A stretch of 64,000 bases of DNA from Octopus vulgaris (Eukaryota). The translations under genes and the position numbers were made by a program. The number at the start of each line of letters is the position of its first letter. Position 1 is the stretch's first letter. Below the pieces are notes generated by a model. That model did not search any database and was not told the DNA's origin. It saw nothing but the letters and a program-made list of their open reading frames with translations. The stretch spans positions 65,224,001 to 65,288,000 of the forward strand of contig OX597815.1 in NCBI GenBank assembly GCA_951406725.2. The letters run 5' to 3'. Shown in pieces: positions 4,386 to 59,625 of the stretch.

Positions 4386-6068
4386 GGGATAGTTGAGCCC
4401 AAATGGCACAAAAGAGCGAAGAGAAAAGATTAATCCCTGTTCACGGTGCAATCAGGAATCCGGATGGCCTCTGTGCAAGGACAATTCGAACACAGACAGG
4501 TGTTGCAAGGAGTGACCGGTGGAGTGGAAATGGCGTGAGACTGGAATGTCATTGGCGAGGTGGATGTCTCAGAGGTGTTCCGCGAACTGGTCAGCCAAGC
4601 GGCGTCCCGTTTGTTCGATGTACAGGGAATGGCAGAAAGAGCAAGAGATGCAATATATGATATTGCTATAGGTGCAGGTGAAGGAGTCGATGATGCGATA
4701 GGGTCGATGATGGGTGCCGGTGAGGAGGGTGATGTTGGAGAGGTGAGGGCAAGTGCTGCAGCATGGGCGGGAGCAGGGGAACGAGGTTGGGAAGTAGGGT
4801 TGGGGAAGAAGCTGTGGACCAAGAGGTCTCGTAGGTTATGGGCTCGTTTGAAGGAGGGGAGGGGTCAGTTAGGGAAGAGGTGTGAAGTGGACGGGTCAGA
4901 CTGGAGATGCCGAAAAGCTCGAAGAATGGTGCGTTGGAGAGGTAGGGTGGTGGGGTGGTAAGTGAGGGGAAAAGGGAGGCGGGTTCGAGGAGAGAGAGCA
5001 GATGCACGGTCTACGGAACGTGCTCTGGCAAGGGCAGTGTGGATAGTGGTGAGGGGGTATCCACGTAGGATGAAGTGGTGAACCATGAATTGAGACTGAG
5101 TCTCAAAGTCATGGTCGTCACTACAGAGCCTGCATAGACGGAGGAATTGGGAATAGGGGATGGAAAGCTTGGTGTGTTTGGGGTGGGAGGAAGAGAAGTT
5201 TAGGTATGAGTTTGAGTCTGTGTGTTTGTAGTGAATGGAGGTGGTAAGAGTGGAGTGATGAATGCTGACCGAAATGTCAAGAAAGGAGACAGAGGTATTG
5301 GAGATAGTGCAGGAGAAGTGGAGGGCAGGATGGAAGGATTTAACAAAAGAGAGGAAGGAGTCTAGATGTTCATGGGAGAGTGAGGTGGCACCGATATAGT
5401 CATCAATATAACGACCGTATAGTTCGGGAGTGGGACCAGTGAAACTAGAGAATATTTGGGCCTCAACATAGCCAACGAACAGGTTCGCATAGTTGGGGCC
5501 CATTCGCGTTCCCATGGCCACTCCCGAGACTTGTTGGTAGAACCGGCCCGCGAACGAGAAGCAGTTAAGAGAAAGGACAAGTTCGGCCAGACGAATGAGT
5601 GTGGAGGTGTCGGGTTCAGGGTTGGGGCGGAGGTCGAGAAAGTGTTGAAGTGCACACAGTCCTTTGTGGTGAGGGATGACGGTATAGAGGCTCTGGATGT
5701 CCATTGTAAAGAGGAGTTCGGAAGAGCCAGGAGGAAAGGAGAAAGAGTTGAAAAGCCGGAGAGCATGGTTGGTGTCGTGGATGTGAGAGGGAAAAGACGC
5801 TACTAGGGGGGCAAGGACACGGTCGAGGTATTTTGAGATAAGCTCGGTGGGTCAGTTACAGGCGGAGACAATGGGGCGGCCAGGGTTGTTAGGTTTGTGG
5901 ATTTTGGGGAGGAAGTAAATGGTGGGGGTGCGTGGGGTTCAGACAATGAGGTTGGATGCAGTATGGGGGAGACGGGAGGACGAGATGAGGTCGTGGACAG
6001 TAGAGGGGACCGTCTGTTGGTAGCTAAGTGTGGGGTCAGAGGACAGAGGGGAGTAGAAGGAGGTGTCA

Positions 6069-6114
6069 GATAGATAGATAGATAGATAGATAGATAGGTA
6101 GATAGGTAGATAGG

Positions 6115-6168
<54 letters not shown>

Positions 6169-17028: not shown

Positions 17029-18953
17029 TCGGTTAATATAGGGCGTTACGATTATCAGAAAATCAAAAAAAAAATGTGTGTAATAGGTGTAAAACAACTT
17101 CCTATGAACGAATATGAAAAAAAAATTCGCGCACGCGAAAGGGGGTGGGGGAGAGGCCTCGGAAAATTCACATCGGGAAGTTCCGAAAGCGTCTGAGGAG
17201 CTGACCCGGGCACCAAAACAAAAAAAAATAGTGTAATATGTGTAAAACAACTTGCTCTAAACGAATATAACAAAATAAATGCGCTCTCGCGAAAGAGGGG
17301 TGGGGAGAGGCCTCGGAAAATTTATATCGGGAATTTCCGAAAGCGTCTGAACCGGGCACAAAAACAGAAACAAAAACAGCGTAATAGGTGTAAAACAACT
17401 TGCTCTAAACGACTATCATGAAAAAAATGCGCGCTCGCGAAAGGGGGTGGGGGAGAGGCTTCGGAAATTTCACATCTTCAGTCCACGGCCTTTAAACTAA
17501 GAAAAAATAGTGTAATTGGTGTAAAACTACTTGTTCTAAACGAGTATCAAGAACACACACTCACACATGAATCATAAACTCCGTATTTTTGTACATATTT
17601 CGCAAAAAAAAAAATAAAGAGAAGAAATTCTGGAAAAAGTGAAGAAATGTTGGATCTCCGCCATGTGAATCAAAATACGTGTCAGAAACATCTTGAAATA
17701 CTACAGAAATTATGTTACGAAAATGATAATGTATACATACCTCTTTGAGTGGTCCATCGATAATGATGATAAAGAAATGAGTTGGATTTGAACTCAGAAT
17801 ATTGACTAACACAACTACATACTACAAGACTCAAAATATTCAGCCAAGTCACCACCCTTTAACTAGCAATAATAATAACATCAATAACATAACAGCCAAA
17901 AGATTTATTTGTTCTGAAAATAACAATCATAGTAAATAAATATGTTCTTTAATATTCACATTCATGTGCACAGTTAAACACACTTACATACAAACAGTCA
18001 CGCATGCATAATACAGAACGGAACACATAAATGAAGGATGCATTACTTAGTATATATTACATCTAGAGAATTTTGATTAATAAGTCAAATATGCAAATTA
18101 TAAAGATAATTAATTGCTTTACTAAACAGTGTTGTAAAGGTGAAAAAATAAATTTGGGAAAAAAATACACGCCAAAACTAATTAATAAAGGATAATAATT
18201 TTTTCTGTCTCTTTTTTTCTGATAAATGCATCTTAATAAGTGAGAAGAATTGCATATATCTGAACTATTTCAAAGAAAAGCATAAATTTAATGTTTAAAA
18301 TAGCTTTAACCAAGGAATGAGATCCAACATTTCTTCACTTTTTCCAGAATTTCTTCTCTTTATTTATTTTTTTTTTGCGAAATATGTACAAAAATACGGA
18401 GTTTATGATTCATGTGTGAGTGTGTGTTCTTGATACTCGTTTAGAACAAGTAGTTTTACACCAATTACACTATTTTTTCTTAGTTTAAAGGCCGTGGACT
18501 GAAGATGTGAAATTTCCGAAGCCTCTCCCCCACCCCCCTTTCGCGAGCGCGCATTTTTTTCATGATAGTCGTTTAGAGCAAGTTGTTTTACACCTATTAC
18601 GCTGTTTTTGTTTTTGTTTTTGTGCCCGGTTCAGACGCTTTCGGAAATTCCCGATATAAATTTTCCGAGGCCTCTCCCCACCCCTCTTTCGCGAGAGCGC
18701 ATTTTTTTTGTTATATTCGTTTAGAGCAAGTTGTTTTACACATATTACACTATTTTCTTTTTGTTTTGGTGCCCGGGTCAGCTCCTCAGACGCTTTCGGA
18801 ACTTCCCGATGTGAATTTTCCGAGGCCTCTCCCCCACCCCCTTTCGCGTGCGCGAATTTTTTTTTCATATTCGTTCATAGGAAGTTGTTTTACACCTATT
18901 ACACACATTTATTTTTTGATTTTCTGATAATCGTAACGCCCTATATTAACCGA
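17029..18953. mobile_element. Foldback-like non-coding element: ~630-bp near-identical inverted arms with internal tandem subrepeats, ~660-bp spacer
   Basis: Left arm 17029-17658 (TCGGTTAATATAGGGCGTTACG...GTTGGATCTC) is the reverse complement of 18319-18953. 130-150-bp subunits start TAAT.(G/T)GTGTAAAAC.ACTT at ~17081, 17234, 17382 and 17513. Confidence 0.9.
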
Positions 18954-27780: not shown

Positions 27781-28622
27781 TTAACCCTTTCATTATCATA
27801 TTTCTGCTGAAATACACTGACATTACTTCAATTAATTTTTAAAACAAAAATGACTTTAGTCAAATAACTCTCATTATTAAGCTGGTGTTAAGGCAGCAAA
27901 CAGACAGAATTGTTAGCATGCTGCACAAAATACTTAGTAGCATTTTTTCTGTCTTTATGTTCTGAGTTCAAATTCTGCTAACTTTGGCTTTGCCTTTCAT
28001 CCTTTCAGGGCCTATAAAATAAGTACAGCACCGGGGTTGATGTAATTGACTTCATCCCTTTCCTGAAATTTCTGACCTTGTGCCAAAATTTTAGACTATC
28101 GTTAAGCTGGTGTTTGGGACATAAATTAACATGACATTTTAATAGAAAGTTTTAATTTGAATCACTTTAACTATTTAGTATTCAGATAAATATTACATTT
28201 CACAGAGTAATCATCATCATCATCATCATCATCATCGTTTAGTGTCCGTTTTCCATGCTAGCATGGGTTGGATGGTTCAGACCCCAGTAGAACCGTCCAA
28301 CCCATGCTAGCATGGAAAACGGACGCTAAACGATGATGATGATGATGATGATGATTACTCTGTGAAATGTAATATTTATTTGTATTGTTTCTAAGTTAAT
28401 CATGCATTATCTCATAGCTTTGAGATTTTGATGAAGTGATGGCTTATTTTTTGAATGACATTGTAGGCTAAGTGTGAGAGGCTGGATCTGGTTGATTCGA
28501 ACATAAGACAGGAAGAATATTTGGAGTTCATATGGCTAGTTTTAGTGCTAAAGGATTAAAACAGTAAGGTTGTAGCATAGAATCAGGGTGGTCTCAGGAG
28601 AATTAGTGTCAAAGGGGTTCAA
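27781..28622. mobile_element. Nested cluster: TTAA-type MITE containing a SINE B (27890-28101, 13-bp TSD), a second MITE and a fold-back SINE end
   Basis: Termini TTAACCCTTT...AAAGGGGTTCAA. TSD TTAAGCTGGTGTT at 27877-27889 and 28102-28114. Confidence 0.7.
28186..28379. repeat. Near-perfect ~90-bp-arm palindrome (11-nt loop)
   Basis: ATAAATATTACATTTCACAGAGTAATC(ATC)n GTTTAG...GGTTC / AGACCCCAGTA / GAACC...CTAAAC(GAT)nTACTCTGTGAAATGTAATATTTAT. Confidence 0.95.
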
Positions 28623-36641: not shown

Positions 36642-36700
<59 letters not shown>

Positions 36701-36703
<3 letters not shown>

Positions 36704-36927
36704 ATAAATATTAGGGAATAAATCCAACTTTACAGGGAAAAAAAATCAGATTTAGGATTAAATCCAATTTTATAGTAAAATATTATAAAATATTATTAGA
36801 GACAAAACCACTATTTTGCAAAACAAACAAGGAAAGACTTAATCAATACATAAAATTTTAATAAATAGTCAAAAAAACCGCCACTACAATCGTTTCTTGT
36901 CTTGATCGACAATCTTCAGGTGGACTT

Positions 36928-36930
<3 letters not shown>
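36701..36930 (-). mobile_element. ~230-bp AT-rich hammerhead-bearing element between two (TA)n runs
   Basis: Flanked by (TA)n at ~36652-36700 and 36931-36960. The end motif AGGGAATA..ATCC.....TACAGGGAAAAA is shared with 58550-58585. Confidence 0.65.
36881..36923 (-). ncRNA. Minimal type-I hammerhead ribozyme with intact catalytic core
   Basis: ccac-CTGAAGA-TTGTC(gatcaa)GACAA-GAAAC(gatt)GTA-gtgg. Perfect stems I and II, a near-palindromic stem III (acgattgt) and a GUA triplet. Confidence 0.85.
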
Positions 36931-36970
<40 letters not shown>

Positions 36971-58521: not shown

Positions 58522-58530
58522 TATATATAA

Positions 58531-59625
58531 TAATATTAATTATTATTATTTGAGGGAATATTAATCCTAACATACAGGGAAAAATTCAATTTAGAAATAC
58601 TAAATCAAATTTCACACAATATTATATATATATATAGAAATGAGAAAAAACCACCTTTTATCAATTCAAAATGAACAATTAAATTACACCATCTAGAAAA
58701 TTACATATAATAGAAATATTAAAATTAAAATAACAATAATATACCGATGATTAAGTAAATTGCCAAAAAATAATAAAACGTATATAATTGGTAGAATAAC
58801 GACACGTGTTTTGTGGCTATATTTAATAAATGATTATAGTAAAACAATTAATAGTAGTAGTAAAATCACTTTGATATAAATATAGCCACTCATCAGGTTA
58901 AAAATATACTAGAATAATAAAATAATTAATTAATAAATATAATTTAAAGAAAACTAAAAACAATATTTAAATTATTCAATACTTTAAAATTAATTGATAT
59001 ACACAATGTTAGTACAAGTCATTAATATTGTAATCAAAATAAGAAATGGTTCAAATATAGACAAATTCATTAAATAAGCTAACTATATAATTAATATATG
59101 TGTAGTATCTATAGATTTAATATATCACTCTATAATATAGTTGACTAAATATCAATTAATATAATACGTAATTATCTTAAATTTAATACTACTTAATAAA
59201 TATACCACCTAACAATTAAATAATACATTGTCTAACAAAATTAATTCTCAAATTAAATTAAATGTAATATGTTAGATCCCTTTATAAAAAAAATCTAGAT
59301 AAATAGATATAAGAATTAATATCTATCGTAACTTATACCTAACAATATATATAAAGATGATATAATAGTGAGAATTATTTGCAAATGGAAAGTAAGAAAC
59401 ATTTAAGCCCCATAAATTAAAGAAAGGTGCAAAAATATTAGAACAAATGAACAATACACTATGAAGATTTTCAATCACAACCACCAGTCCACTACAAATC
59501 CAGTCAATAACAATAATAATAATAACAATGATCAAACTCAAAATAATACAAGATCCAAATAATATTGATAAACAAACTATGTTACGAAGTTCAACGATTA
59601 AATTAATCTATCTGGATTAATATAC
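58531..59625 (-). mobile_element. ~1.1-kb very AT-rich non-coding hammerhead-bearing element adjacent to (TACA)n/(TA)n
   Basis: Shares its end motif with 36701-36930 and contains the hammerhead at 58797-58900. The distal boundary is uncertain. Confidence 0.5.
58797..58900 (-). ncRNA. Type-I hammerhead motif with greatly extended stem II; the core G of GAAA is mutated
   Basis: taac-CTGATGA-GTGGCTATATTTA(~50 nt)TAAATATAGCCAC-aAAAC(acgt)GTC-gtta. 13-bp perfect stem II base, palindromic stem III acacgtgt, GUC triplet. Confidence 0.75.

What the first reader, a model, noticed from the sequence alone, without database searches (positions are those of the whole stretch)
36701..36930. 230-bp solo element with an intact hammerhead, sandwiched in (TA)n: candidate microsatellite-targeting retrozyme
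Seen: a non-coding unit bounded on both sides by pure (TA)n. It begins (minus strand) only ~7 nt before a hammerhead with a fully canonical core, CUGAAGA...GAAAC...GUA. It shares a terminal motif with the 58.5-kb element. Inference: this is a non-autonomous retrozyme or solo pseudo-LTR mobilised by a Penelope-type RT that targets TA repeats, and it is the best candidate in the window for an active ribozyme.
Basis: partly seen in the sequence, partly recalled or inferred. Interest (0 to 1): 0.7.

Follow-up and report, generated by a model that had tools for sequence, protein, structure and literature searches.

The report
Spliced, ribozyme-tipped Penelope retrotransposon end
The 230-base piece is the clipped tail end of a young, protein-coding jumping gene that inserts into TA repeats, not a separate ribozyme element, but hundreds of its sister copies lack the gene's intron exactly and some begin at the predicted self-cutting site, which likely records how this class of elements copies its RNA.

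Summary
Observation confirmed; retrozyme reading not supported. Window 36701-36930 (minus) holds a minimal type I hammerhead and matches, at all but two positions, the terminal repeat of a 6.3-kb element with an intact 838-aa RT/GIY-YIG ORF bearing the Hydra-clade Penelope-like (PLE) motifs. It is one 5'-truncated copy among roughly 700; 97 of 99 sampled end in (TA)n. The family is the interesting part. 484 genomic junctions lack a 1.85-kb GT-AG intron exactly, against 419 that keep the acceptor. Spliced copies stop at or just inside one base 23 nt before the donor (10 of 484 go further); 30 of 30 sampled intact-donor copies run past it. A lineage with the first GT changed to GA has junctions at the next GT. 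Copy 5' ends pile up about fivefold just after the predicted cleavage site; 14 arms start within 2 nt of it. Best reading: sense RNA is the template, the intron is spliced only when cap-proximal, copying starts at two fixed sites, and some templates are self-cleaved (about 55%). No usable RNA data. This scan noted twin priming (same genome) and spliced Hydra-type retrocopies (another genome) before.

The parts
36701..36930 (-). 5'-truncated terminal pseudo-LTR (second exon part) of a young Hydra-type PLE
   Evidence: One indel and one mismatch against the upstream pLTR of the full-length copy L031; 40 of 40 scored genome matches 99-100% identical
36881..36923 (-). Minimal type I hammerhead: helix I 4 bp, helix II 5 bp, helix III 2 bp with self-complementary loop
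   Evidence: Sequence; helices invariant and loops variable over 5 subfamily variants
36884..36885 (-). Predicted self-cleavage site (after GUA); 14 sister arms begin within 2 nt of it
   Evidence: cleavage itself not shown
36928..36930 (-). 5' truncation point, one base after the splice acceptor / exon junction of the parent element
   Evidence: cannot tell whether the template was spliced
36784..36790 (-). Internal second terminus (inferred second RT start site): 596 genomic arms end here in (TA)n
36701..36783 (-). About 80-nt 'tail' between the two fixed termini; 3' end at 36701 (inferred first RT start site)
36652..36700 (.). (TA)n target tract at the 3' end
36931..36961 (.). (TA)n target tract at the 5' end; no target duplication can be told inside the repeat
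58525..58910 (-). Terminus of a distantly related element with a long-stem hammerhead whose GAAA box reads AAAA
   Evidence: family not searched

Best explanation
The 230-bp unit is a 5'-truncated copy of the 3' terminal repeat of a young, autonomous Penelope-like element with Hydra-clade motifs, likely pasted into a (TA)n tract by that element's own reverse transcriptase and endonuclease. Shown: identity to a full-length ORF-intact copy, fixed 3' end, TA flanks, three kinds of sister copy (intron kept, intron exactly absent, truncated). Inferred: (1) Pol II starts at the A of an initiator-like TTCACTT inside the long terminal repeat, 23 nt before a splice donor; (2) RNA that starts there is spliced and copied as short dead-end inserts of about 250 nt, whereas long read-through RNA carrying the ORF keeps the 3' copy of the intron, and this is how the intron survives; (3) the enzyme primes on sense RNA at two fixed sites about 80 nt apart, and when both fire on one RNA the two cDNAs are joined head to head, giving inverted arms with a tail on one side only; (4) most templates are uncut at the hammerhead, and perhaps a fifth are the 3' product of self-cleavage (about 0.55). 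The window copy is most likely inert.
For: Full element: pLTR-ORF-UTR-intron-pLTR, 6340-nt unit, 838 aa without internal stop. Motifs R-x-x-WK, DKT, YRDD, CxCx5C, CxxC, CxH, no GxKF/Y match the Hydra definition. 97 of 99 sampled copies are followed by (TA)5; 2 run on into the ORF leader. 484 joined versus 419 acceptor-keeping junctions; intron 1853 or 1849 nt, GT...AG, two donors 4 nt apart. 84 spliced arms reach the inferred start base, 10 pass it by 4 nt or more; 30 of 30 intact-donor copies pass it. 14 of 30 sampled donors read GAAAGT and junctions keeping GAAA exist, 6 of 6 with a loop marker seen in 3 of 6 GAAAGT-donor copies but 1 of 73 first-donor junctions. A sister subfamily shows the same acceptor/junction pair and the same start letters. 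Two arms of one insertion agree in loop SNP 21 of 21, splice form 14 of 14, G-run 15 of 16; in 5 of 52 rows the short arm reaches exon 1 while the long arm stops at position 57 or later. 5'-end rate about 0.9% per nt at positions 49-74 against 0.04-0.23% elsewhere in exon 2, in two samples.
Against: No RNA evidence for start site, splicing or cleavage. The pile-up lies mostly 6-20 nt after the cut site, in an AT-rich stretch, and 5 of 27 copies whose long arm reads through the hammerhead have a short arm ending there too, so pausing or microhomology explains part of it. The control for exact starts is weak: about 5 truncations among 100 of 119 listed matches, judged from six letters and pooled with another subfamily, against 14. 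One first-donor junction carries the marker of the GA-donor lineage. Helices are invariant, so there is no covariation support (261 of 500 shuffles as high). Clade placement rests on motifs, not a tree. The samples are the first listed matches on contigs C1-C3, and the two samples share loci.
Confidence: 0.8

Rival explanations
1. Independent non-autonomous retrozyme: a tandem 230-nt unit that is cut out by its hammerheads, circularised and re-inserted.
For: Type I hammerhead, TA flanks, hundreds of near-identical non-coding copies; a few local tandem restarts (L019, L042, L100).
Against: Unit equals the terminus of an ORF-bearing element; 5' ends vary from position 130 to beyond -480, so 230 bp is not a unit; no regular arrays or circular permutation in the fetched loci.
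Confidence: 0.04
2. The intron-less copies come from one or a few DNA-level deletion derivatives that then spread as a SINE-like subfamily, not from repeated copying of spliced RNA.
For: A short derivative could be transcribed from flanking promoters; no RNA junction reads were obtained.
Against: Deletion edges are exactly GT and AG, with two donors 4 nt apart; junction copies carry the same SNP classes as intron-keeping copies; the donor shifts where the first GT is lost; the sister subfamily repeats the pattern with a different exon 1; spliced copies lack the upstream region that would hold the promoter.
Confidence: 0.08
3. The hammerhead is never cut in vivo; ends near it come from RT pausing at the helix or the U7 tract and from AT microhomology during joining.
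For: About two thirds of sampled long arms read through the site (67 of 100); short arms of read-through copies also stop at 55-73; Frangieh 2024 found uncut RNA the dominant substrate and no reads ending at the site; fold is weak.
Against: The 90% AT intron end has a far lower end rate (at most 5 of 31 in about 260 nt); 7 arms begin unambiguously at the G after the site, both arms of one insertion do so, and one copy restarts there after an A tract; arm end classes are correlated (22 of 27 against 6 of 24, p 7e-5).
Confidence: 0.4
4. Inverted arms arise by fold-back self-priming on one cDNA or on an antisense template (Arkhipova 2013), not by two priming events.
For: Arms are concordant in SNPs and splice form, as fold-back also predicts; short palindromes sit at many junctions.
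Against: Short arms occur alone between TA tracts, always end at one internal site (596 matches), and in 5 of 52 rows reach further 5' than the long arm; sense-strand GT-AG removal cannot come from an antisense template.
Confidence: 0.15

Closest known systems
Hydra clade of C-terminal EN+ PLEs, including Hydra-1_Obim (Craig et al. 2021, PMC8557442; passages, section 11 and supplement hits read)
   Same: RT then GIY-YIG; RWK, DKT, CxCx5C, CxxC and CxH motifs; no CCHH; hammerhead; (TA)n insertion; partial tandem and inverted 5' copies
   Different: Unit is 6.3 kb (Hydra elements generally under 3 kb), with a 1.1-1.9-kb intron and an Asn-rich linker; protein start and hammerhead differ from Hydra-1_Obim; intron-less copies are not mentioned in what I read
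Penelope of Drosophila virilis (Schostak et al. 2008, PMC2377424, passages; Cervera and De la Pena 2014, PMC4209133, parts 1-2 of 4)
   Same: Start site shortly before an intron in the terminal repeat; intron end next to hammerhead helix I; palindromic loop 3 suggesting dimer cleavage
   Different: Intron there is 75 nt and described as retained on transposition; here about as many junctions are spliced as unspliced
Poseidon of Anolis carolinensis (Frangieh et al. 2024, PMC11167929, parts 1-2 of 4)
   Same: Two fixed RT start sites delimiting a tail; AT-rich targets; uncut RNA as main template
   Different: Tail about 80 nt and upstream of the start codon, not 30-40 nt inside the ORF; genomic ends here do cluster after the cleavage site
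Animal non-LTR retrozymes (Cervera and de la Pena 2020, PMC7229834, abstract and outline only; Li et al. 2026, 10.64898/2026.07.22.740005, part 1 of 5 and passages)
   Same: Short, non-coding, type I hammerhead, pLTR-related
   Different: No tandem unit with two hammerheads; no sequence of its own apart from the parent PLE

Membership tests
Hydra-clade PLE (parent element) | Single ORF, RT with C-terminal GIY-YIG EN | tested here: met
   838 aa, YRDD at 359, VVY...YIG from 708; Pfam and PDB gave no informative hit
Hydra-clade PLE (parent element) | RWK motif, DKT in place of DKG, no GxKF/Y | tested here: met
   RIKWK at 41 (two residues inserted relative to RWK; homologues read RMRWK), DKT at 128, no GxKF/Y
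Hydra-clade PLE (parent element) | CxCx5C linker; CCHH absent; CxxC and CxH around the conserved E and N | tested here: met
   CTCRDKSNC 689, one Cys only between the GIY and YIG equivalents, CYLC 795, CRH 824
Hydra-clade PLE (parent element) | Hammerhead in pLTR and (TA)n insertion | tested here: met
Hydra-clade PLE (parent element) | Placement in the Hydra clade of an RT tree | not tested
   No named reference proteins were available to the tree tools
Neptune / Nematis PLE | CX2-5CxxC linker and CCHH motif | tested here: not met
   against definitions
Naiad / Chlamys PLE | N-terminal EN, no canonical hammerhead | tested here: not met
   EN is C-terminal, hammerhead present
Animal non-LTR retrozyme | Tandem units, at least two consecutive with complete hammerheads | tested here: not met
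   Window copy is single; 5 irregular same-strand pairs in all fetched loci; criterion
Animal non-LTR retrozyme | No coding parent; fixed unit of 170-400 nt | tested here: not met
Animal non-LTR retrozyme | Linear and circular RNAs of unit length | not testable with these tools
   Only contigs of runs guessed to be RNA were served
Minimal type I hammerhead | Core CUGANGA, GAAA, NUH with helices I and II | tested here: met
Minimal type I hammerhead | Palindromic helix III / loop 3 for dimer cleavage | tested here: met
   Self-complementary 8-mer, duplex -5.8 kcal/mol; the common variants keep self-complementarity
Minimal type I hammerhead | G10.1-C11.1 pair | tested here: not met
   U-A here; unpaired in 3 of 5 variants
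Minimal type I hammerhead | Self-cleavage | tested here: inconclusive
   Indirect only: distribution of genomic 5' ends

The most novel reading that the evidence does not exclude
The insertions of this one family are a genomic record of the whole PLE RNA cycle: capped, spliced sense RNA is reverse-transcribed; the intron survives only because its 3' copy is not spliced in read-through RNA; two priming events on one RNA make the inverted arms and the tail; and about a fifth of inserts derive from hammerhead-cleaved RNA, which would be in vivo evidence of cleavage by a metazoan PLE hammerhead.
Probability: 0.4. Interest if true: 0.7.

Novelty: new member of a known kind. Interest (0 to 1): 0.5.

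Why it matters
Two questions about Penelope-like elements are stated as open in papers read here: whether introns survive because the template is antisense or unspliced sense RNA (PMC3846280, section 11), and whether their hammerheads cut in vivo (PMC11167929 found no such reads; PMC4209133 says in vivo evidence is absent). A young family with hundreds of near-identical copies, an intact ORF, exact intron-less inserts, a predicted start base and a predicted cut site makes both directly testable. The single window copy matters little.

Tried and rejected
Rfam: no hammerhead match, whole window or element alone. Folding: z about 0; the hammerhead is not the minimum-energy fold. Pfam and PDB searches of the ORF were uninformative. 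RNA: no RNA holder listed on record; four runs guessed to be RNA, contigs only, cover parts of the ORF start and the pLTR but show no joints and cannot show start, strand or level; the intron and donor were not covered by any read test. Naiad and then Neptune were my first guesses and were dropped on motifs. One search had a wrong anchor (SNP in the reference) and was redone; one search had a structure string out of register and was redone; one search was in an uninformative frame. The control pattern was swamped by a sister subfamily (91 of 100 listed). Covariation: none beyond shuffles. A downstream promoter element was looked for by eye at +28 to +32 and not seen (consensus recalled). Lunse et al. 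2017 was not held and Arkhipova et al. 2003 was not read. Searches for intron-less PLE copies or twin priming in PLEs listed no paper reporting them; most subscription papers, Repbase/Dfam and bioRxiv supplements were not visible, and the O. vulgaris repeat library of PMC13282606 (passages only) may already hold this family.

Full report
Observation. The descriptor is met once in the window and never in 150 resamples. It is a minimal hammerhead: 4-bp helix I, 5-bp helix II without G10.1-C11.1, 2-bp helix III with a self-complementary loop; its fold (-5.4 kcal/mol) is not the lowest (-6.5) and Rfam does not detect it. Five subfamily variants keep the helices and core unchanged while loops vary, and loop-3 variants stay self-complementary, which fits dimer cleavage as proposed in PMC4209133 but gives no covariation signal. 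The 58.5-kb element shares 71% over 124 nt and has its own long-stem hammerhead with AAAA for GAAA.

What it belongs to. A genome search gave 1097 candidates; the 40 scored were 99-100% identical. Two copies 6340 nt apart on C14 frame a full element (L031): inverted 5' part, terminal repeat, an 838-aa ORF, long UTR, terminal repeat, (TA)n. The window copy differs from its upstream repeat by one indel and one base. The protein has RT then GIY-YIG, and the Hydra-clade motifs of Craig et al. 2021; 40 homologues at 31-42% include Argonauta proteins, and one partial 63% hit is from Octopus bimaculoides, so the host is probably an octopod (inference). Hydra-1_Obim is a different family. Exact-match counts: 3756 3'-end 27-mers over several subfamilies, 690 anchors for this subfamily. 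Of 99 sampled copies 97 end in (TA)n and 2 run on into the ORF leader. The 230-bp length is one truncation point among many: of 100 sampled long arms (the first listed matches, window copy included), 31 keep intron sequence, 27 are joined to an upstream exon, 42 stop in the last exon.

Intron-less copies. In L031 a GT...AG interval of 1853 nt ends 9 nt before helix I. 484 genomic matches have it removed exactly, at the first GT or at a second GT 4 nt on; 419 keep the acceptor (inverted arms count separately). 14 of 30 sampled donors have the first GT as GA, and junctions that keep those four letters exist and mostly share a marker with that lineage (6 of 6; 3 of 6 in GA-donor copies; 1 of 73 in first-donor junctions). 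Spliced arms end 5-23 nt before the junction; 84 reach the A of TTCACTT (initiator-like; consensus recalled) and 10 pass it by 4 nt or more, extending 27-295 nt. By contrast, all 30 sampled of 235 intact donors extend past that base. A sister subfamily shows the same acceptor, its own joined form and the same first letters. I infer a cap-proximal first intron that is spliced in RNA starting at the internal promoter and kept in read-through RNA; only the latter can carry the ORF and promoter into a new copy. This architecture matches D. virilis Penelope and bears on the antisense-template proposal. It is inferred from DNA alone.

Two fixed ends. 596 arms end at an internal site about 80 nt before the 3' end, directly in (TA)n, as the inverted partner of a long arm or alone. 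Paired arms agree in loop SNP (21 of 21), splice form (14 of 14) and G-run (15 of 16); in 5 of 52 rows the short arm reaches further 5' than the long one, which simple fold-back cannot give (two loci appear twice among the rows). This fits two RT start sites as shown in vitro for Poseidon firing on one RNA. Earlier notes of this scan reached the same idea for retrozymes of this genome.

Cleavage. Numbering from the acceptor, the cut is after base 48. Long arms: 1 of 67 ends at 7-48, 21 of 88 at 49-74, 12 of 100 at 75-130; short arms: 5 of 66, 20 of 86, 13 of 99 (approximate binomial p 1e-7 and 7e-6; samples overlap). The shape mirrors the cluster just inside the inferred start base. A genome-wide pattern gave 17 matches: 14 arms starting at 47-49 (7 unambiguously at 49, two of them the arms of one insertion), one restart after an A tract, two internal variants. 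The control inside the hammerhead gave about 5 in 100 of 119 listed. Against: most ends lie 6-20 nt past the site in AT-rich sequence, and short arms of read-through copies stop there too (5 of 27). I put cleavage as the main cause at about 0.55.

The window copy starts one base after the junction, so its template cannot be typed; 8 of 100 long arms end within a few bases of the junction, and spliced origin is somewhat more likely because intron-keeping copies rarely stop there. It lacks the promoter region and a second hammerhead and is most likely inert.

Verdict. A real feature and a new family of a known clade, not a retrozyme. Interest comes from the family: intron-less PLE inserts and cleavage-site starts were not reported in the papers my searches listed, though this scan noted spliced Hydra-type retrocopies in another genome. 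No RNA data could confirm any inferred step.

Noticed in passing
window about 4900-6160, minus strand: Degenerate reverse-transcriptase remnant with stops, 21-27% to the Hydra-type homologues (best E 2e-9); its TPRT..YF.PKIHK..RPIVSAC stretch resembles the Neptune-type rows in the Craig 2021 supplement alignment, so probably another PLE.
   Followed up: partly
window 17029-18953: About 600-bp inverted arms at 96-99% with internal 148-154-bp subrepeats around a 660-bp core; looks like a young DNA transposon or foldback element.
   Followed up: partly
window 58525-59625, minus strand: 1.1-kb AT-rich element with a related 3' end and a long-stem hammerhead whose GAAA box reads AAAA; whether this is a family trait or decay was not tested.
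   Followed up: partly
window 28214-28354: Near-perfect hairpin bounded by (ATC)n / (GAT)n, apparently an inverted duplication of a common SINE-like tail.
   Followed up: no
L031 ORF residues 501-690: Asn-rich linker (32% Asn) between RT and EN, like the N-rich inserts described for Adineta vaga Penelopes.
   Followed up: partly
L124-L152: Intron length varies by lineage: about 0.93-1.15 kb in GA-donor copies, over 1.5 kb in GT-donor copies; some loci hold two donor regions about 1.2 kb apart.
   Followed up: partly
L031 spliced leader: A 5-bp hairpin across the exon junction, just before helix I, is predicted only in the spliced RNA; splicing could change hammerhead folding, as suggested for D. 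virilis.
   Followed up: partly
L241, L292, L019: Tandem restarts: L241 resumes at the base after the cut site following an A tract, L292 also restarts there, L019 repeats exon 1 plus hammerhead three times; consistent with template jumping.
   Followed up: partly
L085, L070, L251: Unrelated hammerheads of other families lie within 1.5 kb of sampled copies, one with a 44-nt helix II.
   Followed up: no
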